DNA of 48,947 nt. It comes from Flavobacteriaceae bacterium. GTDB lineage: Bacteria; Bacteroidota; Bacteroidia; Flavobacteriales; Flavobacteriaceae. A program made the position numbers and the translations under genes. Every line of letters begins with the position of its first letter. The first letter of the stretch is position 1. A model generated the notes under the pieces. That model worked only from the letters and a program-made list of their open reading frames with translations, was not told where the DNA came from and did no database searches. Location of the stretch: the NCBI GenBank assembly GCA_027066745.1, contig JAMONB010000078.1:1-48947 (forward strand), read 5' to 3'. Shown in pieces: positions 17,952 through 39,762 of the stretch.

Positions 17952-18527
17952 TTAAAAAATTAAATATAGAATTGGAAATAATAATAGCCAAATTAGGTCA
18001 CACATATGCCAAAATGCAGCACCTGCTTCCATATCTTCAAGTAGTAACGTTCTTTTCTTAAGACCTTTTTGTGTAAAAAGTAAAATGACTAAGCCCACCA
18101 ATACATGAATAACATGAAAACCAGTTAATAACCAATAAAAGGTAAAAAATGAATTTGAACCTAAGGTATACCCTGATTTAATTTTGAGGTAATATTCTAT
18201 ACCTTTTAATATTAAAAAGAGTAAACCACCAAGCATTGTTAATTTAATAAATAATGATGCTTCTTTTAAATTATTTTGTTTGAATTGATGTACTGTTACT
18301 GCCATAAAAGCACCGCTTGTTAATAAAAACACAGTATTTATAGCCCCAAAAGTGGAATTTAAATGCAACCTAGATTGATGAAATAGTTCAAGATTATCTT
18401 TACTATTAATTACCAAAATGATAAGAGCTATACCAAAGGTGATCAGTTCTAAAAAAATAAGAATCCATAGTAGTATTCCTCCTGGTGGATAGTAGATGTT
18501 TTTATAATCTATTTTTACTGTTTCCAT
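17952..18527 (-). CDS. norE: NorE-like protein (cytochrome oxidase subunit III family)
   Basis: LELITF, NTVFLLTSG, LTGFHVIHV, FWHMCDLIWLLLFP. Confidence 0.82.
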   Translation of the reverse strand: METVKIDYKNIYYPPGGILLWILIFLELITFGIALIILVINSKDNLELFHQSRLHLNSTFGAINTVFLLTSGAFMAVTVHQFKQNNLKEASLFIKLTMLGGLLFLILKGIEYYLKIKSGYTLGSNSFFTFYWLLTGFHVIHVLVGLVILLFTQKGLKKRTLLLEDMEAGAAFWHMCDLIWLLLFPILYLIF

Positions 18528-18553
18528 AATTGTATATTAAGGCTGTTTACTAA

Positions 18554-19534
18554 TTAATCCCAATCATCTAACAAACGTTTTTGTCCTTCTAATTTTTGTA
18601 TTTCTGTAACATCTTGACTCATTTCTATAACACCGCGATAGATATTTTCTTTATCTCTAATTGCAAAATATCGTATATGTATCATTCTGCCTTTAAAGTT
18701 AATCCAAAATTCAGCAACATCTTTGGTTCCTGCTTTAAATTCTTCTACAATACGTAATACTAAATGCACACTTTTTGGAGGGTGGCAAAATTTCACTTCA
18801 CGGCCAATAATGCCTTTACTACGCGGAAAAACACGGTCTTCACCTCGGTTATAGAAAATCACTTTATCATTTTCATCTACATAAGTAATATCTACAGGTA
18901 AAAATTTTAATAAAAGATTTACTTGCTCAGGTGTCATATGCCCTTCGTCATAATGAAATGTATTTTCAAGTGAAAAGGATAATTCTCGTTTTTTCGTATC
19001 CATACTTGGGTGTATGTATTCCTCTTCCTTTGGTGCAGGATAGGGTGTAGGGTTACTTGTCAGCATCCATCCAATTTCTTGATCTCCTTGGTAAAACTCT
19101 TTCCAGTCATCTTCGGTTAAAAGATCCATAGCATTTGGAAACAAACGAGAGTCTTCAATACCCATTAAACGTCTAATTCCATCAATTAAATAAGGAATGT
19201 TTTCACTAATTTTTGCAATATTTTTTTCTTCATTATAGGTGTTGAGCAATCTAATTTGATCACGTAATGTATCATGAAATGACCACATACCTTGACTAGG
19301 CCCTTCCCAACCATGTTTTTCTAGATAAGGAAATAACTGATTTTCTTTTCTGGCAAAGCGTTTCTCTACAGTTGTTAATTGGTTAAAAATATTGAAATAT
19401 TTTTGAAAATCTACTTTTGGATCTACACTTTCTAATTCTGTTAAAATTTTTTGAAGTAATGTACCTTCTTCGTAATACACTTTTATAGGGTGTCCTTCAG
19501 GTAACTTTTCAACTTTTTGTATAAATGGATTCAT
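18554..19534 (-). CDS. DUF438 / hemerythrin-like plus PAS_10 domain protein
   Basis: GHPI, RKENQLFP.LE, MWSFHD, LPVDITYVDEND, CHPPKS. Confidence 0.8.
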   Translation of the reverse strand: MNPFIQKVEKLPEGHPIKVYYEEGTLLQKILTELESVDPKVDFQKYFNIFNQLTTVEKRFARKENQLFPYLEKHGWEGPSQGMWSFHDTLRDQIRLLNTYNEEKNIAKISENIPYLIDGIRRLMGIEDSRLFPNAMDLLTEDDWKEFYQGDQEIGWMLTSNPTPYPAPKEEEYIHPSMDTKKRELSFSLENTFHYDEGHMTPEQVNLLLKFLPVDITYVDENDKVIFYNRGEDRVFPRSKGIIGREVKFCHPPKSVHLVLRIVEEFKAGTKDVAEFWINFKGRMIHIRYFAIRDKENIYRGVIEMSQDVTEIQKLEGQKRLLDDWD

Positions 19535-19537
19535 ATT

Positions 19538-20041
19538 TTATTCTATTTTAATAAATGTATTATTTTTTATAAGGTAGGAATCTTCTTGATCTATATTCCA
19601 ACTTTTTTCTTGAAGTGTATTTAAACCTATGATAGAGAATTTTATTGAAAGCGTATCTTTATGTCTAAATAGTGTAATTTGCTTAAAAGTATTTTGAATA
19701 GCTGATTTTATAGGTAAATTGGGACATTTGTTGAGCTTGTAAACAGCTAACATATCATTAGAGAACCATTGTAAAAGCATGCTTAAATGTTGAGGGTCAC
19801 ATTCATTCTCTATTTTTAAGCCTTTTAGTAATTGGCACTTTATTTTTGTTGATGAATTGTCACATTCATTTCCGTAGGCATATAAATACCAAGACAATAA
19901 AGCTTTTTCTGGAACAGATATTTGATTTAAATAGGTGCTGTTTATTTTGTTGTTTTCTAAAACAACTTGGGTAAACTTACTATCTTTCTTTTTACAAGAA
20001 AAGAGTAGTGCACATAGAAAAAAGGTATAAATTATTTTCAT
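19538..20041 (-). CDS. Hypothetical lipoprotein
   Basis: Lipobox LFSC; four further Cys; in the nor accessory run. Confidence 0.65.
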   Translation of the reverse strand: MKIIYTFFLCALLFSCKKKDSKFTQVVLENNKINSTYLNQISVPEKALLSWYLYAYGNECDNSSTKIKCQLLKGLKIENECDPQHLSMLLQWFSNDMLAVYKLNKCPNLPIKSAIQNTFKQITLFRHKDTLSIKFSIIGLNTLQEKSWNIDQEDSYLIKNNTFIKIE

Positions 20042-20208
20042 TAGTCTTTACTGTTATCAACAATGAATAAAATGATAGAGATTGTAAAAGAAATTCCAGC
20101 AGCGATCAATACGTGTTTCATATAAGGCCAGTTTACAAAGCTACCAATGGAACCAATCATTGCAAGTTGTAGTCCGATGGCGAAGGCTATTTTCACTTTT
20201 TTTGTCAT
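20041..20208 (-). CDS. Small two-TM membrane protein (55 aa; missing from the ORF track)
   Basis: MTKKVKIAFAIGLQLAMIGSIGSFVNWPYMKHVLIAAGISFTISIILFIVDNSKD*; TAATG stop/start overlap with the next gene. Confidence 0.6.
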   Translation of the reverse strand: MTKKVKIAFAIGLQLAMIGSIGSFVNWPYMKHVLIAAGISFTISIILFIVDNSKD

Positions 20209-20291
20209 AAGTTCTTACTTTTATTCTACAAATGAATTATGAACTAAATTTTTTGAAATTTGTCATTTTAGTTTTTTGGAATTTTATACCA

Positions 20292-22061
20292 TTAAGATTT
20301 ATGTTTTATTCTATCATATAGTTTTGCTAAAGATTGTAACAGCTCAACTGGTGTTGTTAAAATTTCATAATGGTCAGTTCCAAACATTTGAGGTAAATAA
20401 TATTTAGCATTTGCTTCTATGGCTAAGGCATATGAATTGATATTCCGTTCATTTAATTCTCTTAACGCCTGTTTTACATCATTAATACCGTATTTACCTT
20501 CATATTTATCATAATCATTAGGTTTACCATCAGAAATTAAAATCACCCATTTGTTTTTTGTGTCACGTTTGTCTAACAAAGCCCCTGAATGTCTCAATGC
20601 TGTTCCAATTCTTGTGTATCCTTCAGGCTCAACGGCTCCAATTTTATATTTTGATTTATCCCAATCCTCATCAAAATCTTTTAGGCTTAAATAAGTAGAG
20701 TAGTTTCTTGTTTTTGAATAAAAAGTATTGATAGAAAAATCAACATTAAACTCATTTAAAATTTCTCCAAATAAGATAGAAACTTGTTTTTCAACATCAA
20801 TCACTCGATTGTTTGCAGCATAGCCATCGCTAGATAGACTCACATCGAGTAACATTAAAATAGAAAGGTCTTTCTCTTTTTTACGTTTAGATAAATAGAT
20901 GTTTTCTGAAGGCGTATGTCCAGATTGTACATCAATATACAAATCTGTTAGAGCATCTAAATCAAATTCCTCTCCTTGATTTTGCCTACGTTGTTGCTGA
21001 AATTTATTATTTACACTACTTAACATTTTACGTAAGCCTAGTAGGGTAGAAGCATTATCCTTTAACGTTTTTTTATAATATGAAAGGTTGTTTTCTTTTA
21101 GTGTTTTTGGGTATACTTTACAGAAATCTTCTTTGTATTGACGTTTACTATAATCCCATTCATCATAAGAAATATAATAGTTTTCTGTATTGATTGTTGT
21201 ACTTTCTGCTACGGTTGTATTCTCTACAAATTCTGCTTGATATACAGAATGTGATGTGTCGTCAACACGTACTGTATATTTCATATTTAATTCTTCTAGT
21301 GCTTTACTATGTTCGTCTAATTCATCGTCTCCATCAAAATCTCGCCAACCACCATCCCATTCCTCAGCGGTATCAATTTTTTCAAAATCATGTGTCATTA
21401 CATAATCTTCTTGTTGCTTTTGATCTATTTGTAGTGATACCATTTCTTCAACTGGATTTGCTTTTAAAATGGTTTGAATTTCATCTGCTACTGCTTTTTT
21501 AGCTTTTTCATTAAAATTTTTTAAAGATGGTTTGTCTGAGTCGGTTTCTGAACTGTTTAGCATCCATTTTCCATAAATAAAACTATAGTCGGCCAGAATT
21601 TTATCTGTAGATTTTGAATTGTAAAGATCTAGTAATTGTTGATGGATGTTATCTACTACAGGAAACTCTTCAATTAAAACACTTAAAATTTGTTTAGATA
21701 CTGTTAGTGCTTTTTCTTGAGATTCTTCTAGAGAATGTTCAATTTTACCTTGCCAGTTTAAATTTAATTTTTTTTGAATTGATAAGTACAATACCCGAAA
21801 CAGGTAAAAGGAAAGATTATCTTCATAAGTTGTGAATTCTGAGAATAGAGTAGGGAAGAAGAAGTTATTGTTTTTATAGCCACCTTCTCGTTTTGCAGGA
21901 TAAATATCAATTGATTGCCCTGTAATTGCTCTTGCTAAAATACTGAGACGTGGTTTTATATCAACTAGTTTTACTGTTTTTGAATCAGCTTCAAGTGTCT
22001 CTTGCTTTCTTTTTGTAAAGAAGCTTGCTATTTTACCATATATGTATTCGTCTAAAGCCAT
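20292..22061 (-). CDS. norD: Nitric oxide reductase activation protein NorD (vWA domain)
   Basis: YDEWDY, LLDVSLS MIDAS, YTRIGTALRH, ISDGKPND. Confidence 0.9.
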   Translation of the reverse strand: MALDEYIYGKIASFFTKRKQETLEADSKTVKLVDIKPRLSILARAITGQSIDIYPAKREGGYKNNNFFFPTLFSEFTTYEDNLSFYLFRVLYLSIQKKLNLNWQGKIEHSLEESQEKALTVSKQILSVLIEEFPVVDNIHQQLLDLYNSKSTDKILADYSFIYGKWMLNSSETDSDKPSLKNFNEKAKKAVADEIQTILKANPVEEMVSLQIDQKQQEDYVMTHDFEKIDTAEEWDGGWRDFDGDDELDEHSKALEELNMKYTVRVDDTSHSVYQAEFVENTTVAESTTINTENYYISYDEWDYSKRQYKEDFCKVYPKTLKENNLSYYKKTLKDNASTLLGLRKMLSSVNNKFQQQRRQNQGEEFDLDALTDLYIDVQSGHTPSENIYLSKRKKEKDLSILMLLDVSLSSDGYAANNRVIDVEKQVSILFGEILNEFNVDFSINTFYSKTRNYSTYLSLKDFDEDWDKSKYKIGAVEPEGYTRIGTALRHSGALLDKRDTKNKWVILISDGKPNDYDKYEGKYGINDVKQALRELNERNINSYALAIEANAKYYLPQMFGTDHYEILTTPVELLQSLAKLYDRIKHKS

Positions 22062-22102
22062 TTTCTCATTCTAACCTTCTAAAGGGGAGGAACTTATTGA
22101 GT

Positions 22103-22879
22103 TTATATCATTAAATTACATAAATCACGTAAAGCCTCTATAATTTCTAAATCATCAGTTAAGGGTTCTACTATAGCAACTTCAACTGATAAGCGTTTAG
22201 GTAAACCACTATGAATTAATTTTGCGGCATCTACCAACAAACGTGTAGAAACTGTTTCTGTTAACCCTAATTCTGTTAGGTTTCTAATTTTTACAGCAAT
22301 ATTGACTAATTTTTTAGCAATACCAATTTCAATTTCTGTTTCATTAACTAAAATTTCTGTTTCAATTTTTTCATTAGGATAGTCAAATGTCATTGCTACA
22401 AAACGTTGTCTAGTTGATGGTTTTAATTCTTTAAACCCACGTTGATATCCAGGATTGAAAGAGGCAACCAGCATAAAGTCTTTATGTGCTTTTACTGTTT
22501 CTCCTAATTTATCAATATATAATTCTCGTCTATGATCTGTTAAAGAATGGATTGCAACAATCACATCAGGTCTAGCCTCAGCAATTTCATCTAAATAGAT
22601 GATTGCTCCTTCTTTAACAGCTGTAGTTAAGGGACCGTCTAGCCATATTGCTTCAGAGCCTTTAATAATAAACCGACCAATCAAATCAGTTGAAGAGGTT
22701 TCTTCATGGCATGAAATAGTGATTATTTTCTTGTTTAGTTTATGAGCCATGTGCTCAATAAATCTAGATTTTCCAGTACCTGTTGGACCTTTTATTAAAA
22801 ATGGAATTTTATTGGTATAAGAATGTTCGAAAACTTCAATTTCTTTTCCTATTTGATGATAATAAGGTGCTTGAATCAT
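22103..22879 (-). CDS. norQ: NorQ AAA+ ATPase (CbbQ/NirQ/NorQ family)
   Basis: GPTGTGKS, YLDEIAEAR, SFNPGYQ, LKPSTRQRF, STRLL; ATG 22879 lies downstream of a TATCTTTG -7 element (22897-22904). Confidence 0.92.
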   Translation of the reverse strand: MIQAPYYHQIGKEIEVFEHSYTNKIPFLIKGPTGTGKSRFIEHMAHKLNKKIITISCHEETSSTDLIGRFIIKGSEAIWLDGPLTTAVKEGAIIYLDEIAEARPDVIVAIHSLTDHRRELYIDKLGETVKAHKDFMLVASFNPGYQRGFKELKPSTRQRFVAMTFDYPNEKIETEILVNETEIEIGIAKKLVNIAVKIRNLTELGLTETVSTRLLVDAAKLIHSGLPKRLSVEVAIVEPLTDDLEIIEALRDLCNLMI

Positions 22880-22919
22880 TAGCTTAATATTTGTTACAAA
22901 GATAAGTAAAACTGAGGTC

Positions 22920-22963
22920 TTATTCACTATAAAAAGATAAATTTATCTTTTTATAGTGAATAA
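22920..22963. promoter_or_regulatory. Perfect 44-bp palindrome containing an AAAAGA-N8-TCTTTT operator (22932-22951) upstream of norQ
   Basis: TTATTCACTATAAAAAGATAAA|TTTATCTTTTTATAGTGAATAA. Confidence 0.8.
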
Positions 22964-23027: not shown

Positions 23028-24293
23028 TTATTTTGAAGAAGGCGTATAAGAAAATAATTTTGGTTTAAAGGTGAACATAATCCAGCCCCAACTATTATTC
23101 TCATCTTTATCACCATTTTTTAAAACCTCCATAGTATCAGTAGCAAACATCGTAGAGTAGCCAGCACTTAAAGTAATATCTTTTGCAATTTTATAACCTA
23201 AATTCAGATCAATTTCAGTTCCTAAATTGGCACCCATTTTTGTTCCGATATTATTGTAAACCTTAGCAGGAGCAGAGAAAAAATGAGGAATTAATTTTGC
23301 TGAAAATTTATCTTTTTTATAGGCTAACATAAAATTGAGATCAGTTAAGCCGACAGAGCCACCGTGGTTTCCTACATAGAAATAATCCATCCAACCATTA
23401 AATTTATGATTGGTACCAAAAAGAGGGGCAAACGAATTTACATCACTAGAAACATCATTCATATCTTTGCCAGAGAGGTATTCAAAACCCAATCCTGCAG
23501 AAAAATTATCAGATATTTTATAAGCAGCATTTCCTGCAAAATAAGTAGCACTTACATCTTTATCTAAAGAAGACCCTGTTTGAAAATAAGCAGCAGTGTT
23601 AGCACTAAATTTTCCTGATTTATAGGTTAGTCTAGGTCCAATAGTTTGCATATAATCAACAGTTTGGTTACCAGAATTAATATATTCAACACCTGTGTTT
23701 AAAAGTAAAAAACTCAAACCTAATTTGTTAAAATCACCATGATACCAAGCGTATTGAAATGATTTATACCCTGCGGCATTACTATATAAATTATCTGTAC
23801 CAGATTGAGAGTCTGCGTTTAAAGCTAAACCTACGTCTAATTTATTGTTTTTATTAAATAGATGTTTAACGATAACAGCATCATGGCTTCTGGCTTGTTG
23901 AGCCCAACCTACATTACCAAATATTCTATGATCATCATAGACAATTTCTTGACGCCCCAATTTTACTGAAACTTTGTCTGTTAGTTTTACAGTAGCCCAA
24001 GCTTCATGTAAAGCGGTAGCATTGTCATCACTGGCTAAAGTACTTACATCACCCCAAACTCTAACATTTTGCATAGAAACATAGAGTTTTAATTTATTAT
24101 TTTCATAGCCAAAATTTAGTCGAGTACGTTGCGATACAAAATTAGAGCCATCAGCATCTGTTGGGATTAATGTTTTATAGCCATGTTTGTTTTCATAACG
24201 TGGTCTAATTTCGGCAGACAGATCAAATTGTTGTGCTGTTATGCTTGTTACCATAAGAGTAACTAAAGCTGTTAAATAAATTATTTTTTTCAT
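23028..24293 (-). CDS. Alginate-export (AlgE-like) family outer-membrane beta-barrel
   Basis: Signal peptide, EIRPRYE, SQRTRL, GRQEIVYDDHRIFGNVGWAQQARSHDA, GTNHKFNGWMDYF. Confidence 0.8.
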   Translation of the reverse strand: MKKIIYLTALVTLMVTSITAQQFDLSAEIRPRYENKHGYKTLIPTDADGSNFVSQRTRLNFGYENNKLKLYVSMQNVRVWGDVSTLASDDNATALHEAWATVKLTDKVSVKLGRQEIVYDDHRIFGNVGWAQQARSHDAVIVKHLFNKNNKLDVGLALNADSQSGTDNLYSNAAGYKSFQYAWYHGDFNKLGLSFLLLNTGVEYINSGNQTVDYMQTIGPRLTYKSGKFSANTAAYFQTGSSLDKDVSATYFAGNAAYKISDNFSAGLGFEYLSGKDMNDVSSDVNSFAPLFGTNHKFNGWMDYFYVGNHGGSVGLTDLNFMLAYKKDKFSAKLIPHFFSAPAKVYNNIGTKMGANLGTEIDLNLGYKIAKDITLSAGYSTMFATDTMEVLKNGDKDENNSWGWIMFTFKPKLFSYTPSSK

Positions 24294-24314: not shown

Positions 24315-26318
24315 TTAAAAATTAAATGTTGTTTTTATAAAATATGATTTCCCCCATAGTTGTATATTTCTTTCATGAGCAACACCAATCTGATTTACAT
24401 TATTAATATCTGTAATATCAAAAATATTTTTTGCTCCAATAGAAAGAGCTATTCTATTTTTATAAAATGATTTCTGTAATGAAATATCTAAATTGTTAAA
24501 ACTTTCTCTACTAGTCTTTTTTAGGATGTCTATACTGTTTTCTTTTTCAATATAATGTCCATCTCTTTTACCGGTATATTTGTAAAAAAGATTAAAGTTT
24601 ACTCCATATGGTTTGTAAGAATACACAATAGATCCAGTAGCAGAAGGTGTAAACATAAATTTATCAGAATTGAATTCAGAGGTGTATTCTAGATATCTTC
24701 CTAAATAGGAGAGTCCTAAGTTACATTGCAAATCTTCAAAAATTTTGTACTTGACTTGTACACCATAATTTTGAGATTTCATTTTATTTAAATTGATATA
24801 ATGTCTTTCAAAATTCACCAATTCACTTAAGCCGATTAAATCTTTTATTTCTGTATAACTAAAAGAAGGTTCTATGGAAATAAAACTGTTATTAGAAAGT
24901 GTTTTTGTGAATGAATAGTAAAAATTGAGACTATGTGATGCTTCAAGTTTTAAATCTTTATTTCCTGAAAAAGTGTAGGTAACCGGACCAAAAGTTGGTG
25001 TCCAATCTAGATACAATTCTTTGATGCTTGGAGCCCTATAACCATTACCATAAGCAAATCGTATGGCATTGTTATTATTAATTTTATATTTTAAATTCAA
25101 TGCTGGTGACCATAAACTTTTAAAAGTACTATTGTAGGTATATCTTAAAGCTGGTTGGACTTCTAATCTATCGGTTAACTTATAATTGATACTAGAAAAA
25201 ACTGACGTGTTTTGAATATGTTGTTTCTCATTTAAAATTCTATTTCCTTTGCCATAATCTAATTCGTATTCAAGACCAATAAGAAAATTAATCTTATTTT
25301 CAGGATTACTATCTGCATATTGTCCTTTAAGAAAGAAAGTGTCAAAGTAGTTACCATTTTCATTAGGATTATTTTCTATTAGTGTACTTGAATTTGTAGT
25401 TGGTTTAAATTTATAAGAAGTGTCAAACCTGTCATAATTTAAATAGGAAGCTGTAAAGTCTAAATATTGATTGTTTTTTAGTTTACCTTGAAGGTTAATA
25501 CTATTGTCAAACCTACGTGTAGTATAATCAACATCTGTTGCTTTTTTTCGTTTTACCTCACCTAAAGTTTTTACAAGTTCTTCTGAGAAATTATTTGAAT
25601 AATGCAGTCTAAAATTACCAATATTTCTAATGAATTTAAAACGATGATTGTACTGTCTCTTAGTTGGCCAATTTAAAGATCTTGTATTGTTATTATCAGT
25701 ATTTAAACCATTGAAATAATAATACCCACCACCAAATTTCAATATGCTTTTCCCTATTTTAATGCCTAAATGAGCATTAACATCTTTTACTTCTGTAGTT
25801 TCATAATACCCAGACAAACCTCCTGTAATTACTTTTTTTTGTTTTTTTTTAGTGATTAAATTGATAGTGCCTCCCATAGCATTTGTACCATAAAATACAG
25901 AAACTGGACCTTCAATGACTTCAATTCTTTCAATATCTTCTAAGTTAATTTGATTTAAGTTTAGCACACCGTTTACTCTTCCAATTAAAGGTACACCATC
26001 AATGAGAATTTTTACATTTTCTTTTGACACACCATTCAATTCTATACCAGCTCCAAAAACTGGATTAAAAGAAAAGTCCATATTTAGTTCTTGTCGTAAC
26101 AAGTCAGTTAAATTTGTAGCAGCCTTTGCTATTATTGTTTTAGCATTGATTATTTTAACTTTATAAATTGCATTCTTTTCGCTTGTTGGTGTAAACTGAG
26201 CGGTAACTACAACTTCATCTAATTGTTCTGTTTTGGTTGTATCCTTTTTTTGTTCTTGAGCTGATAACAGATTAAAACAAAGCAACAATAGTCCTAAGGA
26301 TATTAATAATTCCTTCAT
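24315..26318 (-). CDS. TonB-dependent receptor, heme/cobalamin receptor-like
   Basis: LDEVVVTA TonB box, IERIEVIEGPVSVFYG..AMGG.INLIT plug, YRAP...GNKDL (FRAP/NPNL-like), terminal Phe. Confidence 0.88.
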   Translation of the reverse strand: MKELLISLGLLLLCFNLLSAQEQKKDTTKTEQLDEVVVTAQFTPTSEKNAIYKVKIINAKTIIAKAATNLTDLLRQELNMDFSFNPVFGAGIELNGVSKENVKILIDGVPLIGRVNGVLNLNQINLEDIERIEVIEGPVSVFYGTNAMGGTINLITKKKQKKVITGGLSGYYETTEVKDVNAHLGIKIGKSILKFGGGYYYFNGLNTDNNNTRSLNWPTKRQYNHRFKFIRNIGNFRLHYSNNFSEELVKTLGEVKRKKATDVDYTTRRFDNSINLQGKLKNNQYLDFTASYLNYDRFDTSYKFKPTTNSSTLIENNPNENGNYFDTFFLKGQYADSNPENKINFLIGLEYELDYGKGNRILNEKQHIQNTSVFSSINYKLTDRLEVQPALRYTYNSTFKSLWSPALNLKYKINNNNAIRFAYGNGYRAPSIKELYLDWTPTFGPVTYTFSGNKDLKLEASHSLNFYYSFTKTLSNNSFISIEPSFSYTEIKDLIGLSELVNFERHYINLNKMKSQNYGVQVKYKIFEDLQCNLGLSYLGRYLEYTSEFNSDKFMFTPSATGSIVYSYKPYGVNFNLFYKYTGKRDGHYIEKENSIDILKKTSRESFNNLDISLQKSFYKNRIALSIGAKNIFDITDINNVNQIGVAHERNIQLWGKSYFIKTTFNF

Positions 26319-26336
26319 TATTTTAGTTTAAAGAAT

Positions 26337-26369
26337 AATCAATCGGTAGTTTTTAACTACCGATTGATT
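26337..26369. other. Perfect 15-bp hairpin between nirS and the TBDR gene
   Basis: AATCAATCGGTAGTT-ttt-AACTACCGATTGATT; weak U tail on the minus strand. Confidence 0.75.
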
Positions 26370-26386
26370 TAGTTTGATTATTTAGA

Positions 26387-28039
26387 TTAATAAATATCGT
26401 GTGTAGTATTATAAACGTTAAATTTTCCTGTTGGGTTTTGTACCCAATCTCCTTGAATGGTTTGTTTTAATTTTAAGGTTTTATCATTATAAATTAAGAT
26501 TGCAGCTTCTTTACCCATAAAAACGGAAATCCAAACTTCATTTCCTGCTTTGTTGTATTCCATATGAACCATTCTGCCATCAACACCTTCTGGCATTGTG
26601 ATTGTCTTTTTAAGTTCCATAGTTTGTGTGTCAAAAACATCAACACTAGAATTCAATTTTGCATCAGGGTTTAAAGTTCTATCAACCCATAGATGTTTAG
26701 ATCTTGGATGTGACTTTACAAATAGTGCACCACCACCATTACCAGAAGCTTTGAGTTCTTTTACAACGGTCCATTGTCCTTCACCAGGATTGGTTTTAAT
26801 GAGTGATAATTTATTTTCACCTAAGTGAGAAGTTACCCAAAGATTCCCTAATTTATTTTTGATATTTGTTCCCCTTCCAGGATGTGGCTTGATACCCGTT
26901 TCAATAATTTTAACCAATTTTTTATTGGGAACGTCAATTACAACAATTTTATTACTTGCATTTGCCGCAACTAAGAAATAATGCCCAGTTGAATCAAAAC
27001 CGCCATCATGTAAAAATCTTGCAGAAGGAATTTGAGTCATTCCAGGTTTTTTAGGATCTGTATAATCAACAATCCATACCATACCAGTTTCTTTTACATT
27101 ACAAATCCAAACAGGATCTGTATGAGAAGCTACGATGGAAGCAACACGAGCTTCTTCTATAAACTCTTTATCACCATCACAAGCATTTCCAGCAGTTGGT
27201 GTAACACTTATTGGTTTCAATGTTTGAGCATCTAAAATAGCAATATGACTTGGGCTATACCCTCCAAACACTAAATATTTATCTTCAAAGCCTTTATATT
27301 TTGATACTTCTACTGATCGAGAATCAAAACCACCTTTAACTTCCGCAACGATAGTTGGTACTTTTGTATAGGTATCAATCATTGTAATTTTTCCATCTCT
27401 ACCTACAGAGTATATATATCTTCCAGAAGCAGAAGTTCTTAAAATATGAACTGCAAATCCAGTAGGGAGCACTACTAATTTTTCTTTAGTATCACCATCA
27501 ATAATTGCAACTTTTCCTGCATCTCTCATAATGACACCAAAGTAGTTGTCAATATTTCTACTATGTTCAGGTTTGGTAGGTCGGTCAGCAACAGGAATAA
27601 GCAATTTCCAAGAATCGGTCATTTCTTTAAGACCATATGCAGGAACTACAGGAGGGTCAACTTGTAAGAAACGAGTCAATAATTCAATTTCTTCCTCTTT
27701 TAATATTCCTTTCCATTCTGGCATTCCACCTGGTGTACCATTTTCAATAAATGCTCTAATTCCACCAACACCTAAAGCTTTTGTTGCTGCAGCTTTACCA
27801 TCACCATCAGGTAATAGTGAAGGTCCTGTTGCTCCTTTACGTGAAGAACCATGGCAACCAGCACATCTGTCAAAGTATATCGCTGCACCTTTTTCCATCT
27901 CAGCATCGGTTATACTAATTTCATTAGAAGCAGTTTCTTCACCTTTTTTCTCATCTTTTACTTCTGTTTTTTTTTCATTTTTACAACTAAAAGCTAATGT
28001 TACAAACAAAAGAATTAGTATTAAATTCAGTTTTTTCAT
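26387..28039 (-). CDS. nirS: Cytochrome cd1 nitrite reductase, lipoprotein form
   Basis: CAGCH...GATG, GGMPEW, AVHILR (d1 ligand His), FLHDGG and PHPGRG catalytic His, PTGKFNV; lipobox AFSC. Confidence 0.92.
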   Translation of the reverse strand: MKKLNLILILLFVTLAFSCKNEKKTEVKDEKKGEETASNEISITDAEMEKGAAIYFDRCAGCHGSSRKGATGPSLLPDGDGKAAATKALGVGGIRAFIENGTPGGMPEWKGILKEEEIELLTRFLQVDPPVVPAYGLKEMTDSWKLLIPVADRPTKPEHSRNIDNYFGVIMRDAGKVAIIDGDTKEKLVVLPTGFAVHILRTSASGRYIYSVGRDGKITMIDTYTKVPTIVAEVKGGFDSRSVEVSKYKGFEDKYLVFGGYSPSHIAILDAQTLKPISVTPTAGNACDGDKEFIEEARVASIVASHTDPVWICNVKETGMVWIVDYTDPKKPGMTQIPSARFLHDGGFDSTGHYFLVAANASNKIVVIDVPNKKLVKIIETGIKPHPGRGTNIKNKLGNLWVTSHLGENKLSLIKTNPGEGQWTVVKELKASGNGGGALFVKSHPRSKHLWVDRTLNPDAKLNSSVDVFDTQTMELKKTITMPEGVDGRMVHMEYNKAGNEVWISVFMGKEAAILIYNDKTLKLKQTIQGDWVQNPTGKFNVYNTTHDIY

Positions 28040-28106: not shown

Positions 28107-28171
28107 CAAAAGTAACATAGATTGTGTTGAATAAATATGATTTATGTCATAAAAAGACAATCTTATCTTTT
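28107..28171 (-). promoter_or_regulatory. nirS promoter: -7 element, Fnr-type box and adjacent AAAAGA-N8-TCTTTT operator
   Basis: CAAAAGTA 28107-28114; ATGATTTATGTCAT 28137-28150 (22-nt gap); AAAAGACAATCTTATCTTTT 28152-28171. Confidence 0.82.
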
Positions 28172-28758: not shown

Positions 28759-30108
28759 CTAATCCTCTACAAGTTCATTTACTTCTAAGGCTTCATCAGT
28801 CGGTTGACCATGTTTAAAAAACTCAATAATATAAAGTGTTATTCCAACAATAAATAAGGTAGCCATAATAATAAGAACATAGAAGTGAATTTCAAGATCT
28901 TTTTGAACGGTCATAAAATCCATTTTCATTTTACGTTCCATATAGACTTGTGCAACACCAGCGACACCAAAAGCAACTGTCATACCAATCATACCAATAT
29001 TTGAAATCCAAAATGCCATTCTACCTCTTGCTGTATCATAGAATTTTCTTCCTGTCATGTTTGGTAAAGCATAGCTAATAATTGCAAAGACAATCATTGC
29101 ATAGGCTCCCCAAAAGGCTAAATGTCCATGCATTGCAGTTACAATTGTACCATGGGTATACAAATTAGTTTGTGGTAGTGTATGTGCGAAACCAAGCAAG
29201 CCAGCTCCAATAAAAGATACAATTGCAGAGCCAATGGTCCATAATAATGCTGTTTTATTTGGATGTTTCTTCTCTCCTTTGCGATACATATTTACGGCAA
29301 ATAACGCCATAGCTAAGAAAGCTAATGGTTCTAAAGCAGAAAAGATACCACCAACAATTAACCAAATTTTATTTACACCTATATAATAGTAATGATGCCC
29401 TGTACCTAAAATACCAGATAAGAAGGTTAATCCTACAATTACGTATAACCATTTTTCAATAACTTCACGGTCAACACCTGTTAGTTTGATCAATAAGAAT
29501 GATAAAATACCACCCATAATCAATTCCCAAACACCTTCAACCCATAAGTGAACAACCCACCATCTAAAGAATGAATCGAGAACTTGACTATCAAAATCTA
29601 TCATTCCTGGTAAGTAGAGTAGTGCTGCAAATAAAAGCCCCATAGACATTACAAGAGCTGTTGTTGTTTTTCTTTTCCCCTTAAATAAAGTAATAAGAAT
29701 TAAGGCCATAAACAGTAATACGTTTACAACAACTAGATAATCTAATGGTCTTGGTATTTCTAAAAATTTTCTACCTTCCCAATAATTAAAGTGATAACCA
29801 ACTATTGCTGCTACACCAACAAGAGCTAATGAGATTAATTGAACATAAGCCAACTTTACACTTACCAATTCATGTTGTGCTTCTTCTGGAATAATGTAAT
29901 ACGCAGCCCCCATAAAACCAGACAATAGCCAAACTACTAATAGGTTTGTGTGTACTGCTTTTGCTGTGTTAAAAGGAATCCATTCATGTAAGCCATCCAT
30001 TCCTGCATGGGCAAAGCCCATAATTAGACCATAGATTAATTGTAGTGATAATAATAGCATTGATAAAGCAAAAAACCAATAGGCTACCTTTTGTGATTTA
30101 TATTTCAT
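28759..30108 (-). CDS. norB: Nitric oxide reductase large subunit NorB (cNOR)
   Basis: VHTN, WWVVHLWVEG, GTGHHYY, ALEP, AHT...HGHLAFWG; 449 aa, no qNOR extension. Confidence 0.95.
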   Translation of the reverse strand: MKYKSQKVAYWFFALSMLLLSLQLIYGLIMGFAHAGMDGLHEWIPFNTAKAVHTNLLVVWLLSGFMGAAYYIIPEEAQHELVSVKLAYVQLISLALVGVAAIVGYHFNYWEGRKFLEIPRPLDYLVVVNVLLFMALILITLFKGKRKTTTALVMSMGLLFAALLYLPGMIDFDSQVLDSFFRWWVVHLWVEGVWELIMGGILSFLLIKLTGVDREVIEKWLYVIVGLTFLSGILGTGHHYYYIGVNKIWLIVGGIFSALEPLAFLAMALFAVNMYRKGEKKHPNKTALLWTIGSAIVSFIGAGLLGFAHTLPQTNLYTHGTIVTAMHGHLAFWGAYAMIVFAIISYALPNMTGRKFYDTARGRMAFWISNIGMIGMTVAFGVAGVAQVYMERKMKMDFMTVQKDLEIHFYVLIIMATLFIVGITLYIIEFFKHGQPTDEALEVNELVED

Positions 30109-30119
30109 GATGTGATTGT

Positions 30120-30560
30120 TTAGTTGTTAGATTTATCTTTTGCTAATGGAGAAACTACTGTTTCAAATCCGTTTAAATCGATTTCTCCAATCCATTTAAA
30201 AAAGGCTACCATATCATCGGCTTCAGCCTCAGACATATTATAGGCTACCATCTTTCTACCTCTTGGTTGCCATGGTTGTTCAGACATTAATGCTGCTTTA
30301 ATATAAGCATCGCCTCTACGTTCTACTACTTTAGTTAATTCTGGAGCATAGTAACCTCCTTCTCCCATAATGGTATGACATCCCATACAATTGTTTGATT
30401 CCCAAAGTTTTTTACCCCGTACGACTGCTTCGGTAATATTTTCTGAGTGAGATTGGTCTTGAGCTTCTCCTAATGAATACACAGTTAATCCTATAAAAAT
30501 TAGAAATGTAACTACTGTACCACCCAAAAAAAACGCTCGTGCTTGTTTTTTTGATAACAT
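30120..30560 (-). CDS. norC: Nitric oxide reductase cytochrome c subunit NorC
   Basis: TM anchor, CMGCHT.MGEGGYYAPELT, RKMV. Confidence 0.95.
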   Translation of the reverse strand: MLSKKQARAFFLGGTVVTFLIFIGLTVYSLGEAQDQSHSENITEAVVRGKKLWESNNCMGCHTIMGEGGYYAPELTKVVERRGDAYIKAALMSEQPWQPRGRKMVAYNMSEAEADDMVAFFKWIGEIDLNGFETVVSPLAKDKSNN

Positions 30561-35573: not shown

Positions 35574-36356
35574 TTAAAAATCTTTTTTACGTAATTTCAT
35601 TTTCATTCTAGCTAATGGCAAAATCACCCATAAGCAGAGTACTAAAAATGAAAGAAATGATCCTGTTTTTGTACCAAAAAAATCTTTAAAAACAGCACCA
35701 GTATAACCTAACAATACAGAAATATCAAGTTTTAATAAAATCAATATTCGAGAGAGATCTATGGGGTTAAACATCGTAGCGAATAAAGAGAATTTGTCTA
35801 AAGGATATTCATTAAAAGTAATTAAAGAAATCATAAACAATCCATCATAAATAACAGCCAAGAATAACCACAATAAAATGGCATAGCCAAACCCTTTTAT
35901 TTTATTTTCTGTAGATAGAGCTATGTTATAAGCAAGTGCAACAAAAATAAAGTTGAGAAATGACCCAACTAAGATCAGTAAACTAAAATCAAAAATTGCT
36001 GTAGATTTAGACAGTCCGTATATCATAAAAGGAATACCTAATCCTAATACTAGGCTGAGGGTTAATGATAATGAAATACCTAAATATTGCCCTATGAAAA
36101 TTTTACTTCGTTTAATAGGTTGAGCTAGTAGAAGTTCAGTAAATTCTTTAGAGTTGTAGTAGTACATTACTCCAAATATGGTTCCGATTAAGGGGGTTAA
36201 AACTATAATAATATTCATTAAAGTAATTACAGCTTTGTTCATGTCATTATTTAAAAATAAGAGCACAAAACCTAGAAATAAATAGAAAATAAAGTAAACA
36301 TAACTCCATCTACTACGTAACAAATCATAAAAACTATATTTTAATATTTTAAGCAT
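35574..36356 (-). CDS. nosY: ABC permease NosY
   Basis: ELLLAQPIKR, FNPIDLSR; multiple TM helices; follows nosF. Confidence 0.9.
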   Translation of the reverse strand: MLKILKYSFYDLLRSRWSYVYFIFYLFLGFVLLFLNNDMNKAVITLMNIIIVLTPLIGTIFGVMYYYNSKEFTELLLAQPIKRSKIFIGQYLGISLSLTLSLVLGLGIPFMIYGLSKSTAIFDFSLLILVGSFLNFIFVALAYNIALSTENKIKGFGYAILLWLFLAVIYDGLFMISLITFNEYPLDKFSLFATMFNPIDLSRILILLKLDISVLLGYTGAVFKDFFGTKTGSFLSFLVLCLWVILPLARMKMKLRKKDF

Positions 36357-36357
36357 A

Positions 36358-37068
36358 TTATTTAGATATTAAGTTGGCAATTGCATGCTCTAAGTTTGGT
36401 TGATTTGTTTGTTGTTTAAGCTTAGCAACACTTCCTTTAAAGTAAATTTTTCCATCCAATAAAAATACAATTTCATCAGCCATTTCATCTACAAAACTCA
36501 TAATATGTGTTGTTATTAAGATTGTTTTTCCTTTTTCTTTTTCTTTGACAATAAGTTCTTTAAGGTGGATTAATGCAATGGGGTCTAGGCCTGTTGTTGG
36601 TTCATCAAGTATAATTAAATCACTATCAAACATAAAGGTTAACACTAAATTTACTTTTTGTTTTGTTCCGCCAGACAGATTACCCAATTTTTTATTTAAA
36701 AACTCTTGTAACCCAAAAAGGTCAATTAAATTTTGTTCGTGAGCTTCTTTTGGACGTAAATTTTTAACCATGTTAATCAGTTCAATAACTGATAGGTTAG
36801 CTGGGAAGTTGGCAATTTGGGGTAAATAGTTTAAGTTGTTTCTATAATCCCATTTTTTTAGAACAGATTTTTTAGCAATTGAAATGGTACCTTTATTAGG
36901 TATGACCATACCTAATAAACATTTAATCAAGGTAGTTTTACCTGAGCCATTTGGGCCTAAAATAGCAAATATACCACCTTCTGATCCTTCAGGGTTAATG
37001 GTTAAATCTAAACCATCTAAAACGGTGAGTTTTCCAAATTTTTTATGTAGGTTTTTTATTTCTATCAT
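36358..37068 (-). CDS. nosF: ABC ATPase NosF
   Basis: GPNGSGKT, LSGG, ILDEPTTGLD. Confidence 0.9.
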   Translation of the reverse strand: MIEIKNLHKKFGKLTVLDGLDLTINPEGSEGGIFAILGPNGSGKTTLIKCLLGMVIPNKGTISIAKKSVLKKWDYRNNLNYLPQIANFPANLSVIELINMVKNLRPKEAHEQNLIDLFGLQEFLNKKLGNLSGGTKQKVNLVLTFMFDSDLIILDEPTTGLDPIALIHLKELIVKEKEKGKTILITTHIMSFVDEMADEIVFLLDGKIYFKGSVAKLKQQTNQPNLEHAIANLISK

Positions 37069-37126
37069 ATGAGATATGAATTACAAGAATTAGCACAAAT
37101 TGTTTTCATAATTTTTATGTTGCTCT

Positions 37127-38434
37127 CTATTCTAAAGGGTTTATGGGTTTCATTAATGGTTTATTATCCATTAAGTTATCTGGTGTAAAAACGGGAGAAA
37201 CTTTTTCAGAAAAATTAATAATATCAACAAATAAACTTCGTAATAGTACTAATGTTTCTGGAGTTTTGTTTACAACATATGAAAATAATTTTACAGGCCT
37301 AAAGGGTACATCTCCAATACCATTTTTATCAAGATCGTAGCCAGTATATTCACTCCAGTAATTGGCTTCAAATTTATTGTCGTTTAATCTGCTATTATAA
37401 GATAAATCAAATGCATTGTGCATAAAATTATTAAATTCAAAAACATTGGTATAACAGCCCCCTGTAAATTTTAATGCCCATCCGTTTCTAATAAAATGAT
37501 TATTTTTATAATTGATTCGGTTACAACCATCAATGTTTATACCTGTAGTATTTTGTTCAAAAATATTTTCATAAATTTCAGCATCATTAATTTCTTTTAA
37601 GAGTAGGCCGTATGCAGCAGTACCCCAATTGTAATGAAAGGTGTTATGATGCATTTTTATAAACTTAGAAAACATTACAGCAACCCCAGCTCCATTAGTT
37701 TTAAATTCATTATGATGATATTCATTATAGTGAGAAAACATAAAATGCAAACCATACCTAATATTATTCTTACTTGTATTGTTTGAAATGAAACTTTTAT
37801 TTACAAATTCTAAATAAATACCATCTCTCATCCCAGTAATGGTATTTTGTTCAATCCTTAAATTTTTACACTTCCATACATGTACACCATTTCCTGAACT
37901 GGTTTCATCAATGGCATTGCCTGTTACTTTGTTATTCTGAATTAAACCATATTTAGAACTTTGTATAATGAATCCATAAAAAACATTATTCAATAGATTA
38001 TTTTTTAATGTGAAATTTTTACTGTGTGAAACAAAAATAGCAGCAATTTCTTTGGTGTAACTCATTCCGATATTTATAAATTTAAAACCCGAAATACTGA
38101 AATTATTAGCACTAATAGCAAAAACACTATCCGTTTTGTTTTCAGCGTCTATCACTGGATAATCTTCCCCTATAAGATGTATAGATTTTTTGACAAAGAT
38201 TTGGGTTTCTTTATACAAACCTTTCTTCACTAAAATAGTGTCACCATCTTTTGCAAAAGAAACAGCATCTTTTATTGTTTTTGTTTTACAAGAAGCACAT
38301 ACGTTTATGGTTTTAGTTTGTGCATGAAAATTTGTTGAAAATAAGAAAAGTAATAGAAAACCATATAAGATTCTCCAACCTTGTTTTGTAGAGTCTAGGT
38401 ATTCAGTCTTCTGTTTTGTAACTTCTGACGTCAT
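37127..38434 (-). CDS. nosD: N2O reductase maturation protein NosD
   Basis: Beta-helix repeats, RDGIY, RYGLHFMFS, NYWSEY.GYDLDKNGIGDVPF. Confidence 0.92.
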   Translation of the reverse strand: MTSEVTKQKTEYLDSTKQGWRILYGFLLLFLFSTNFHAQTKTINVCASCKTKTIKDAVSFAKDGDTILVKKGLYKETQIFVKKSIHLIGEDYPVIDAENKTDSVFAISANNFSISGFKFINIGMSYTKEIAAIFVSHSKNFTLKNNLLNNVFYGFIIQSSKYGLIQNNKVTGNAIDETSSGNGVHVWKCKNLRIEQNTITGMRDGIYLEFVNKSFISNNTSKNNIRYGLHFMFSHYNEYHHNEFKTNGAGVAVMFSKFIKMHHNTFHYNWGTAAYGLLLKEINDAEIYENIFEQNTTGINIDGCNRINYKNNHFIRNGWALKFTGGCYTNVFEFNNFMHNAFDLSYNSRLNDNKFEANYWSEYTGYDLDKNGIGDVPFRPVKLFSYVVNKTPETLVLLRSLFVDIINFSEKVSPVFTPDNLMDNKPLMKPINPLE

Positions 38435-38435
38435 T

Positions 38436-38879
38436 CTATTTTGAAAGTTTTGCTTTTAATTGCTCCCATGTCAATAATTCACCACCATTTTTTGCAAGCA
38501 TTTCTTCAGCAGTTTTTTTTGAGCTAAAAGCAGAAAGATTTGCCCCCATGGGGCTTTTAATTTTCTCACTAATTAAATATGTAGCAGCTAATGCATCAAC
38601 CAATTCACCAGGATTTGCGTAGTCTGCAACTAACAAGAAAGACATATTCTCTTCGCTATTATCTCTATTTAGTTCATTAACCATACATTCAATGGCATCA
38701 AACATAAATGCTTTTCCTTTTTTTGTTACATATTGAGCAGCATGTGTTTTATCAACAACAGTCATGTCACAAAAATGGCAATGATCATTACCATAGTTAA
38801 TTTCTTTTGGTTCAACCTTACAAGAAGTGACTATGAATAGACTAAGGAGTAATGTTAATACGGTTAGTTTCGTTTTCAT
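38436..38879 (-). CDS. nosL: Copper chaperone NosL (lipoprotein)
   Basis: Lipobox VTSC, CHFCDM, FDAIEC, SPMG; ATG 38879 preferred. Confidence 0.9.
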   Translation of the reverse strand: MKTKLTVLTLLLSLFIVTSCKVEPKEINYGNDHCHFCDMTVVDKTHAAQYVTKKGKAFMFDAIECMVNELNRDNSEENMSFLLVADYANPGELVDALAATYLISEKIKSPMGANLSAFSSKKTAEEMLAKNGGELLTWEQLKAKLSK

Positions 38880-38917
38880 TAATAATTGTATTAGTAAATT
38901 GGATAACAAATATATAG

Positions 38918-38955
38918 TAAAACAAGCATATTCTAAGTTAAATATGCTTGTTTTA
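38918..38955. other. 15-bp hairpin between nosB and nosL
   Basis: TAAAACAAGCATATT-8 nt-AATATGCTTGTTTTA. Confidence 0.65.
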
Positions 38956-39000
38956 GACCTATGTAAAGTGATAATTGTATAACTTTATAAAAGCTATTTA

Positions 39001-39585
39001 CTATTTAGCTTCTTTTTTACCGACAAAGAATGCTATAAAGGTTAACATCATTCCTGAAAACATTAACCAAGCTCCTGGCATAGGGTAGGAGTGTGCAGTG
39101 AAATTCAGAATATCTTTGGTTCCAAATAGAGGGGGTTGAAAACCCATTTTTGTCCCATCTGGATTTTTGAATTTCATTATTGCATGAGGATCTAAGGTGT
39201 GACCATAATCATATTCCCATAGATAAAAATCATACATTCCAGCAATTCCAAGAGCAGACATTAAAATAAACCATCCTAGATACCATTTATAGTTGCCTGT
39301 AAACCCTATAATGACACCTAGAAGTACCATGATTCCTATCACAACAGGAAAGACTTTGAACTCAGGAATGGTCTCAGGTATATATTGCATACCTACATAA
39401 TGATTCATTAAATTGATATTCTTTATATCAAATTCATGAGTGTCAGAAAATTTATTGATATGAATATCCATTCCCAAAGGAATTGGATATTGAGGTGCCT
39501 CTAAAGTTATATTCCAAAGAGGAAATACGAATAGACCTAGTAGTAATAATGACCCGATAATCATTATGATTTTAGACTTTTTCAT
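39001..39585 (-). CDS. nosB: Clade II nos membrane protein (NosB-like)
   Basis: PLW.ITLEAPQYP, INLMNHYVGM, YGHTLDP, FQPPLFG; directly after nosZ. Confidence 0.75.
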   Translation of the reverse strand: MKKSKIIMIIGSLLLLGLFVFPLWNITLEAPQYPIPLGMDIHINKFSDTHEFDIKNINLMNHYVGMQYIPETIPEFKVFPVVIGIMVLLGVIIGFTGNYKWYLGWFILMSALGIAGMYDFYLWEYDYGHTLDPHAIMKFKNPDGTKMGFQPPLFGTKDILNFTAHSYPMPGAWLMFSGMMLTFIAFFVGKKEAK

Positions 39586-39623
39586 GATATATATTTATTT
39601 AAAATTTAAATGAAATTGATTAA

Positions 39624-39689: not shown

Positions 39690-39701
39690 TATTATAATTG
39701 T

Positions 39702-39738: not shown

Positions 39739-39762
39739 TAGTATTAAAATCTAAATTTAATA

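What the first reader, a model, noticed from the sequence alone, without database searches (positions are those of the whole stretch)
24315..28039. nirS without heme d1 biosynthesis genes but paired with a heme-receptor-like TonB transporter: possible heme d1 scavenging system
Seen: NirS keeps the c-heme motif, the d1-ligand His and both catalytic His, yet no nirE/F/D/L/G/H/J/N/C/M is present in 49 kb that otherwise hold all nor, nos and cco maturation genes. The next gene (68 nt away, past a hairpin with a weak U tail) is a TBDR with a YRAP...NKDL loop. That loop has Tyr but not the His typical of heme b receptors, and there is no hmuY partner. Established: heme d1 is used by NirS, is inserted in the periplasm, and its genes usually cluster with nirS. 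Inference: this organism may import d1 made by other denitrifiers directly into the periplasm, a cofactor cross-feeding route I do not know to be described.
Basis: partly seen in the sequence, partly recalled or inferred. Interest (0 to 1): 0.82.

Follow-up and report, generated by a model that had tools for sequence, protein, structure and literature searches.

The report
Candidate heme d1 import receptor
This bacterium has the nitrite-respiring enzyme NirS but no detectable genes for making its special heme d1 cofactor, and the next gene encodes a heme-receptor-type outer-membrane importer that likely scavenges the cofactor from neighbouring denitrifiers, which would make this step of the nitrogen cycle depend on cofactor sharing.

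Summary
Observation confirmed and extended. nirS is a true, conserved NirS; the TonB-dependent receptor (TBDR) follows 68 nt later, past a 15-bp hairpin. The 91%-complete genome has no NirF, NirN, NirJ, NirDLGH or uroporphyrinogen methyltransferase, but has heme b synthesis genes. None of 44 related Bacteroidota genomes has NirJ or NirDLGH; 38 of 38 assessable loci carry a TBDR after nirS; 33 of 33 assessable metagenome copies of the TBDR follow nirS. Its nearest unlinked relatives are HmuY-paired heme receptors; nine nirS loci include HmuY-type genes and two genomes keep NirN, the last d1 enzyme. In other phyla, 12 of 15 nirS genomes without NirJ have a nearby TBDR from other heme-receptor-like lineages, against 0 of 21 with NirJ. 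Lutibacter profundi carries the pair and in pure culture reduces nitrate to nitrite without anaerobic growth. Best reading (0.7): import of heme d1 or dihydro-heme d1 into the periplasm. The cargo is inferred, not shown; the loop Tyr does not exclude heme b. Not found in my literature searches; this scan proposed the same idea twice before on other DNA.

The parts
26387..28039 (-). nirS, cytochrome cd1 nitrite reductase, 550 aa, with a lipoprotein-type signal (Cys19); heme c motif, d1-site His and Arg intact
   Evidence: lipobox pattern in 35 of 39 related proteins; dN/dS 0.08-0.11
24315..26318 (-). TonB-dependent receptor, 667 aa, of an HmuR-type lineage; candidate heme d1 importer. YRAP 427-430, Y448, NKDL 453-456, H648
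   Evidence: Pfam plug and barrel; model pLDDT 84, TBDR fold; trees; dN/dS 0.10
26337..26369 (-). 15-bp hairpin with a weak U tail between nirS and the TBDR; likely a partial terminator or mRNA stabiliser that lowers TBDR expression relative to nirS
   Evidence: stem-loops of other sequence at the same place in most related loci
28137..28150 (.). ATGA-N6-TCAT palindrome about 100 nt upstream of nirS; likely site of an FNR/CRP-type anoxia or NO regulator (assignment inferred)
   Evidence: 11 copies in the window against 1.75 expected, 0 of 100 shuffles as many; upstream of 14 of 35 related nirS or norC operon heads against 0 of 23 generic receptors
23028..24293 (-). alginate-export-family porin directly after the TBDR; frequent third gene of the cassette, possibly an anion channel (inferred)
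   Evidence: Pfam PF13372; recurs in related loci
17952..22927 (-). norQ, norD, small lipoprotein, hemerythrin/PAS protein, norE-like gene: downstream part of the same gene run
28759..30560 (-). norC-norB, nitric oxide reductase, upstream of nirS
35574..42300 (-). nos cluster (cytochrome c, nosZ, membrane protein, nosL, nosD, nosF, nosY); context showing a nitrite-to-N2 gene set

Best explanation
The genome encodes an intact NirS but no detectable heme d1 pathway, and the adjacent heme-receptor-type TonB transporter likely imports heme d1 (or its last precursor, dihydro-heme d1) released by other denitrifiers into the periplasm, where NirS would bind it. Shown: gene content, linkage, receptor ancestry, purifying selection. 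From the literature: d1 is made from siroheme by NirDLGH, NirJ, NirF/NirC and NirN, and the last step and insertion are periplasmic (PMC13168839), so only the outer membrane has to be crossed; no inner-membrane transporter or heme-degrading enzyme is needed. Inferred: co-transcription under an anoxia/NO-type box with a hairpin damping the receptor; TonB-driven uptake; loading of heme-c-containing NirS without NirF or NirN; in some relatives HmuY-type proteins capture the cofactor and NirN finishes dihydro-d1.
For: (1) No d1 genes found: own genome; 0 of 44 related genomes over cut-off for NirDLGH or NirJ, while ferrochelatase is found in 25 of the same 44 and 4 of 6 control genomes score for both; also none in single-contig G180 and in G388, G450, G454 (99% complete). 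(2) NirS looks functional and d1-type: all catalytic His and pocket Arg172/201/214/241/389 invariant in 78 of 78; dN/dS about 0.1. (3) Linkage both ways: 38 of 38 assessable loci of 44; 33 of 33 assessable of 35 in the reverse search; 6 of 6 nirS genomes and 0 of 294 others in a family sample; the same 4 of 24 in the genus. (4) Tetrapyrrole-type cargo: 23 of 23 fetched nearest unlinked relatives are followed by HmuY; 9 nirS loci carry HmuY-type genes. (5) d1-type cargo: in G319 and G331 a NirN-like gene (240 bits to 6rtd against 69 to NirS) sits in the cassette with no NirF, NirJ or NirDLGH. (6) Convergence: outside Bacteroidota, 12 of 15 genomes without NirJ have a TBDR near nirS against 0 of 21 with NirJ; these TBDRs form two other clades, one PhuR-like (295 bits). 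Sister pair: L058 (TBDR, no d1 genes) and L065 (d1 genes, no TBDR), NirS 73% identical. (7) Not the general heme-iron system: the genome has hemA, C, B, L, E, H and N; G301, G309, G320 and G388 have separate HmuY-TBDR loci. (8) L. profundi LP1: nirS Lupro_11570, TBDR Lupro_11575 (48% identical); nitrate reduced to nitrite, no anaerobic growth on nitrate.
Against: No binding or transport data. Structure search does not discriminate cargo: Cir, PirA, ChuA and BtuB score alike; NCBIfam ranks B12 (119.5) and heme (113.5) models alike, both far below cut-off. Tyr in the FRAP/NPNL loop also occurs in PhuR, a heme receptor. 19 of 44 related genomes, G301 and complete genome G347 show no ferrochelatase, so in some hosts the receptor could serve heme b. 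The Bacteroidota NirS has F507 in 40 of 42 where 21 of 21 NirJ-linked enzymes have Trp, a possible pocket change. The HmuY-linked subgroup is sister to cassettes without nirS (L193, L194), so the wider clade is not purely nirS-linked. One orphan (L082) has no TBDR in 14 kb; two more lack enough flank. Related genomes are not independent: the contrast rests on a few lineages. L. profundi was not itself searched for d1 genes, and its phenotype has other possible causes. The source of free d1 in nature is unknown.
Confidence: 0.7

Rival explanations
1. These NirS enzymes use another tetrapyrrole (heme b or a host-modified heme) at the active site, and the receptor supplies it.
For: Receptor ancestry is heme-b type; F507 replaces a conserved Trp and several residues near Y261 differ in the Bacteroidota clade; 19 of 44 genomes show no ferrochelatase.
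Against: Pocket arginines are invariant (three Arg contact the d1-specific half of the ring, bioRxiv 2020.01.13.904656). The di-heme orphan group keeps the Trp, and L058 is 73% identical to d1-gene-linked L065. The own genome makes heme b. NirN is kept in two cassettes. Poor activity of heme-b-reconstituted NirS is recalled (Hill and Wharton 1978; title only seen).
Confidence: 0.12
2. The receptor imports heme b or iron to meet the demand of anaerobic cytochromes; it sits in the operon for co-regulation, and NirS gets d1 by another route or is mostly inactive.
For: HmuR-type ancestry, H648 shared with generic receptors; the operon is rich in heme proteins; cargo not resolved by fold.
Against: Does not explain why the TBDR is next to nirS only where d1 genes are missing (12 of 15 against 0 of 21), why it follows nirS rather than nor or nos genes, or purifying selection on nirS. 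Separate generic heme-uptake loci coexist in four genomes.
Confidence: 0.12
3. The organism makes heme d1 by a non-homologous pathway.
For: HMM searches see only known families; G388 has a SUMT.
Against: No SUMT over cut-off in G000, G301, G302 or G347, so no known route to siroheme; no conserved candidate enzyme genes appear around nirS in 44 + 35 loci; L. profundi stops at nitrite.
Confidence: 0.04
4. The missing genes are an assembly artefact.
For: Own genome is 91% complete in 448 contigs; many relatives are fragmented.
Against: Three markers are missing in 44 of 44 (NirF judged from the PF02239 count), in 99%-complete genomes, and PF17805 in 301 of 301 family genomes.
Confidence: 0.02

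Closest known systems
HmuR/HmuY heme uptake of Bacteroidota (P. gingivalis HmuR-HmuY; Flavobacterium psychrophilum HfpR-HfpY, bioRxiv 2022.04.04.486927)
   Same: Nearest unlinked relatives are TBDRs followed by HmuY (23 of 23); FRAP/NPNL-type loop; last-loop His shared; nine nirS loci carry HmuY-type genes.
   Different: Loop His replaced by Tyr/Phe (23 of 23); no HmuY in this genome; placed in a denitrification operon behind an ATGA-N6-TCAT box; proposed cargo is an enzyme cofactor used in the periplasm, not nutrient iron. No direct comparison with HmuR or HfpR sequences was made.
PqqU (YncD) of E. coli with the PQQ-dependent glucose dehydrogenase (biology recalled; NCBIfam NF041535 and PDB 9c4o appear)
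   Same: Same logic: a periplasm-facing apo-enzyme, no cofactor synthesis, a TBDR that salvages the cofactor.
   Different: Different receptor lineage (37 bits against a cut-off of 1200), different cofactor and pathway.
PhuR of Pseudomonas aeruginosa (PDB 8the)
   Same: Closest solved relative of the TBDRs next to orphan di-heme nirS in Gammaproteobacteria (295 bits); Tyr at the same loop position.
   Different: Only a weak plug match to the window's TBDR (22 bits); PhuR serves iron acquisition from heme.
Canonical nir cluster (nirS with nirCFDLGHJEN)
   Same: Same NirS motifs and catalytic residues; found in 21 of the 36 non-Bacteroidota genomes examined.
   Different: Biosynthesis genes are replaced by a receptor gene. 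Pold et al. 2024 (PMC10999283) note that NirS clades differ in nirBEFJNT content; the passages I read give no uptake explanation.

Membership tests
NirS (cytochrome cd1) | CaGCHg, LHD and PHpGrG motifs that separate NirS from NirN and NirF (Pold 2024, Fig. S1 legend) | tested here: met
   CAGCH 59, LHD 343-345, PHPGRG 385-390
NirS (cytochrome cd1) | Heme c ligands His/Met, d1 ligand His, two catalytic His (P. aeruginosa H51, M88, H182, H327, H369; PMC8756737) | tested here: met
   H63, M106, H198, H344, H386
NirS (cytochrome cd1) | Heme d1 bound and nitrite reduced to NO | not testable with these tools
   Needs purified protein
Canonical d1-synthesising nir system | NirE/CysG, NirDLGH, NirJ, NirF, NirN encoded | tested here: not met
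TonB-dependent receptor | N-terminal plug and beta-barrel | tested here: met
   PF07715 and PF00593 over cut-off; TM-score 0.77 to Cir and ChuA
HmuR-type heme receptor system | FRAP/NPNL motifs with a His between them | tested here: not met
   Motifs present, His replaced by Y448
HmuR-type heme receptor system | Adjacent HmuY hemophore | tested here: not met
   None in the genome; present in nine related loci
HmuR-type heme receptor system | Descent from HmuY-paired receptors | tested here: met
   Grouped with HmuY-paired receptors, support 98-99; fast tree methods, distant outgroups
HmuR-type heme receptor system | Iron (Fur) regulation | tested here: inconclusive
   No match to a recalled E. 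coli Fur consensus, but the generic receptors score no better
TIGR01785 heme receptors / BtuB | Score above the curated cut-off | tested here: not met
   113.5 of 316.85 and 119.5 of 599.7; generic HmuY-paired L113 also fails both
Heme d1 salvage receptor (proposed) | Binds and transports heme d1 or dihydro-heme d1 | not testable with these tools
   Genomic inference only

The most novel reading that the evidence does not exclude
Heme d1 is a shared good. NirS denitrifiers in several phyla have independently replaced the whole d1 pathway with a dedicated receptor drawn from at least three heme-receptor-like lineages; some Bacteroidota add surface and secreted HmuY-type d1 hemophores and a NirN to finish salvaged dihydro-d1. 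Their nitrite respiration works only near d1 producers.
Probability: 0.5. Interest if true: 0.85.

Novelty: new variant of a known kind. Interest (0 to 1): 0.75.

Why it matters
Heme d1 is assumed to be made by the cell that uses it. If it is salvaged, nirS counts do not equal autonomous nitrite-reducing capacity: a share of nirS carriers would depend on neighbours, with consequences for nitrite accumulation and N2O budgets in sediments and reactors. It would explain isolates that carry a complete denitrification gene set yet stop at nitrite in pure culture. It adds cofactor exchange to the known exchange of N-oxide intermediates among partial denitrifiers, and it gives a first candidate d1 transporter and d1 hemophores. 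A deposited type strain makes the test simple.

Tried and rejected
Single-sequence fold of the TBDR failed (pLDDT 28); the alignment-based model worked but fold search did not resolve cargo. Sigma-70 and Bacteroidota promoter scans were at chance level. The Fur consensus test was uninformative. The claim that all nirS-linked Bacteroidota TBDRs form one nirS-only clade was weakened when unlinked paralogues L193 and L194 fell beside the HmuY-linked subgroup. Tyr-for-His as proof of non-heme-b cargo was rejected. My motif scan missed hemB, hemL and hemH, which were then found by position and HMM, so its negatives for NapA, NarG, NirK and NrfA are weak; tblastn found no NirK and only a 28% NapA match. 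The NirJ query was a wrong-frame ORF; the test was redone. The Atlas search of the 167-aa lipoprotein gave only unnamed Bacteroidota lipoproteins. The PhuR ligand paper was not held. No complex prediction was run, since no binding is claimed. Paper searches with no hits.
Full report
What is there. The window is one contig of a 3.44-Mb, 91.4%-complete assembly; the closest named relatives of its nirS are Flavobacteriaceae and other Bacteroidota. It holds cco, nor, nir and nos genes. nirS (26387-28039, minus strand) scores 500 bits to P. aeruginosa NirS, 146 to entry 6rtd (NirN; name recalled) and 52 to NirF. It has the three NirS-specific motifs of Pold et al. and all ligand and catalytic residues. 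The TBDR starts 68 nt after the nirS stop, behind a 15-bp hairpin with a weak U tail (z -6.5). An ATGA-N6-TCAT palindrome lies about 100 nt upstream of nirS. It occurs 11 times in the window against 1.75 expected, mostly in front of respiratory genes, and upstream of 14 of 35 assessable related operon heads against 0 of 23 generic receptors (9 of 44 loci had too little upstream DNA). That it binds an FNR/CRP-type regulator is inferred.

The d1 pathway is missing. In the own genome PF02239 matches only nirS. NirJ, NirDLGH and SUMT have no match near cut-off, and profiles built from fetched loci agree. The heme b genes hemA, C, B, L, E and H lie on one contig and hemN in the window. One search confirmed 354 nirS relatives and kept the best 80: 44 Bacteroidota (74-88% identity) and 36 from other phyla. 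Of the 44 genomes, 0 have PF17805 or NirJ over cut-off, and 42 have a single PF02239 match. Ferrochelatase was found in 25 of the same 44, and 4 of 6 control genomes scored for the d1 markers, so fragmentation does not explain the absence. PF17805 was found in 0 of 301 family genomes. Three 99%-complete, high-GC genomes of a distant family (G388, G450, G454), the only other NirS carriers among 400 phylum genomes, show the same pattern.

The linkage is tight in both directions. Of 44 loci, 29 have a TBDR as the next gene, 9 have it one gene further on, and 6 contigs end too early. Starting from the receptor, 33 of 35 metagenome loci have nirS directly upstream and the other 2 have no upstream DNA. 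Among 300 family genomes the close receptor (39-63% identity) occurs in exactly the 6 that have nirS (only 4 candidates per genome were scored). Among 24 genomes of the same genus both genes occur in the same 4, one with nirS cut by the contig end. Both genes are under purifying selection, dN/dS 0.08-0.11 in three pairwise comparisons with the window.

What kind of receptor. Profile and fold searches do not name the cargo. Neighbourhood does: 31 family genomes have a 28-32% relative; 23 were fetched and all 23 are followed by HmuY. Trees group the nirS-linked receptors with these (support 98-99). The nine loci with an inserted gene read nirS, a T9SS-tailed protein (HmuY match weak, 24 bits), TBDR, HmuY. 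The His of the FRAP/NPNL loop (14 of 14 generic receptors aligned) is Tyr or Phe in 23 of 23 receptors of the window's type and Ile in 7 of 7 of the HmuY-linked type, while the unlinked paralogues L193 and L194 keep it. The loop therefore changed in both nirS-linked groups. This fits a new ligand but does not prove it, because PhuR has Tyr at the same place (its role as heme ligand is recalled). Against my first reading, L193 and L194 are sister to the HmuY-linked subgroup, so only the window's own group with the distant-family and metagenome members (20 rows, support 95) is purely nirS-linked.

Why d1 rather than heme b. First, the NirS pocket: R172, R201, R214, R241, R389, Y261 and the three His are invariant across 78 sequences with and without d1 genes. 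That these residues line the d1 site is partly recalled; the NirF paper states that three arginines contact the d1-specific half of the ring. F507 for Trp is the exception. Second, G319 and G331 keep a NirN-like gene in the cassette, directly behind HmuY in G331, with no NirF, NirJ or NirDLGH; NirN converts dihydro-d1 to d1 in the periplasm (PMC13168839). Its named relatives include Campylobacterota and Thiotrichaceae proteins. Third, exclusion in other phyla: 15 of 36 genomes have no NirJ and a single PF02239 match; 11 have a TBDR within 1.5 kb of nirS, one at 4.9 kb, two lack enough flank and L082 has none. None of the 21 with NirJ has a TBDR in the fetched flank, several of which are short. 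These receptors form two further clades: one PhuR-like, with 4 of 6 tested over the TIGR01786 cut-off, the other scoring best on TIGR01785 but below cut-off. L058 and L065 are sister NirS proteins, one with a receptor and one with d1 genes. These genomes are kin, so the contrast rests on a few lineages. Fourth, four genomes checked have a separate HmuY-TBDR locus, although 3 of 5 and the own genome have no HmuY. Against: 19 of 44 genomes and complete genome G347 show no ferrochelatase, so heme b import is possible in some hosts.

Phenotype. Lutibacter profundi LP1 has norC, norB, nirS and this receptor as consecutive locus tags 11560-11575. Its genome paper reports all denitrification genes, nitrate reduced to nitrite and no anaerobic growth on nitrate (PMC5219744). 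That is what a d1 auxotroph would show, but I did not search this genome for d1 genes and other causes are possible.

Mechanism. Most likely (0.7): under anoxia nirS and the receptor are made from one operon, with the hairpin keeping the receptor low; heme-c-containing NirS waits in the periplasm, probably lipid-anchored; d1 or dihydro-d1 from lysed or leaky producers is taken across the outer membrane with TonB energy and binds NirS. NirN is not strictly needed for active NirS, and dihydro-d1-loaded NirS is active in vitro (PMC3694632). Gene content, linkage, ancestry and selection are shown; co-transcription, regulation, cargo and loading are inferred.

Novelty and literature. It works like PqqU-type cofactor salvage (recalled) using HmuR-type parts, and fails the HmuR membership tests for the loop His and an HmuY partner. 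Seven searches of the held library listed no paper on d1 uptake; one search listed 30 of 169 hits, and subscription journals are mostly missing. Seen: PMC10999283 passages, section 12 and parts of supplement files 1, 5 and 6 (the spreadsheet supplement was too large; Table S3 was not seen and may list the gene absence by clade); PMC13168839 abstract, introduction and methods; passages of PMC8756737, PMC3694632, PMC6449446, PMC12569097, PMC11651109, bioRxiv 2020.01.13.904656 and 2022.04.04.486927; PMC5219744 passages and supplement rows. Hill and Wharton 1978 and Weeg-Aerssens 1991: titles only. This scan proposed the same reading for two other genomes; those notes are unchecked and not independent evidence. 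Verdict: real feature, new variant of a known kind, interest 0.75.

Noticed in passing
window 30763-35200 (+): A small Cys/His protein, a second TBDR (766 aa) and a BNR-repeat protein lie divergent from norC, near an ATGA-N6-TCAT box; related genes flank nor/nir in L013, L015, L017 and L032. Possibly metal uptake for Nor or NosZ.
   Followed up: no
L047:4627-6168 and L198:2021-3493: NirN-like gene inside the nirS-HmuY-TBDR cassette of two genomes with no upstream d1 pathway; named relatives include Campylobacterota proteins.
   Followed up: partly
L056, L058, L060-L063, L071, L073-L077, L079, L082, L083: Long NirS (two CxxCH motifs in 14 of 15; L083 is cut) in Bdellovibrionota, Verrucomicrobiota and Gammaproteobacteria without d1 genes, mostly beside heme-receptor-like TBDRs of two other clades.
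   Followed up: partly
L041:11722-13047 and nine aligned relatives: Conserved family of about 420-aa T9SS-tailed proteins with a weak HmuY match: candidate secreted hemophores.
   Followed up: partly
L193:6579-14368, L194:8244-13664: Paralogous cassette without nirS: T9SS-tailed protein, CbiX-like protein, FMN-binding or PepSY protein, TBDR, HmuY; keeps both loop His.
   Followed up: partly
window 6684, 9201, 28137, 30647, 35534, 43081, 45050, 47027: ATGA-N6-TCAT boxes in intergenic or upstream positions of cco, nir, nor, nos and hemN genes, with an FNR/CRP-type gene at 5958-6644: a likely flavobacterial anoxia regulon.
   Followed up: partly
window 19538-20041 (-): 167-aa lipoprotein of no known family that recurs in the nor-nir run of many relatives.
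   Followed up: partly
window 23028-24293 (-): Alginate-export-family porin accompanies nirS in Bacteroidota and in several orphan loci of other phyla; candidate nitrite channel.
   Followed up: no
L004:15294-16757, L007:8310-9761: A multicopper-oxidase plus cytochrome c protein (NirK-like) in the same locus as orphan nirS: a possible d1-independent backup. None was found in the own genome.
   Followed up: no
G000 whole genome: No NapA or NarG found (best match 28%); the organism may start at nitrite. Weak negative at 91% completeness.
   Followed up: partly
G301, G347 and 19 other genomes: No ferrochelatase match: possible heme b auxotrophs among these denitrifiers.
   Followed up: no
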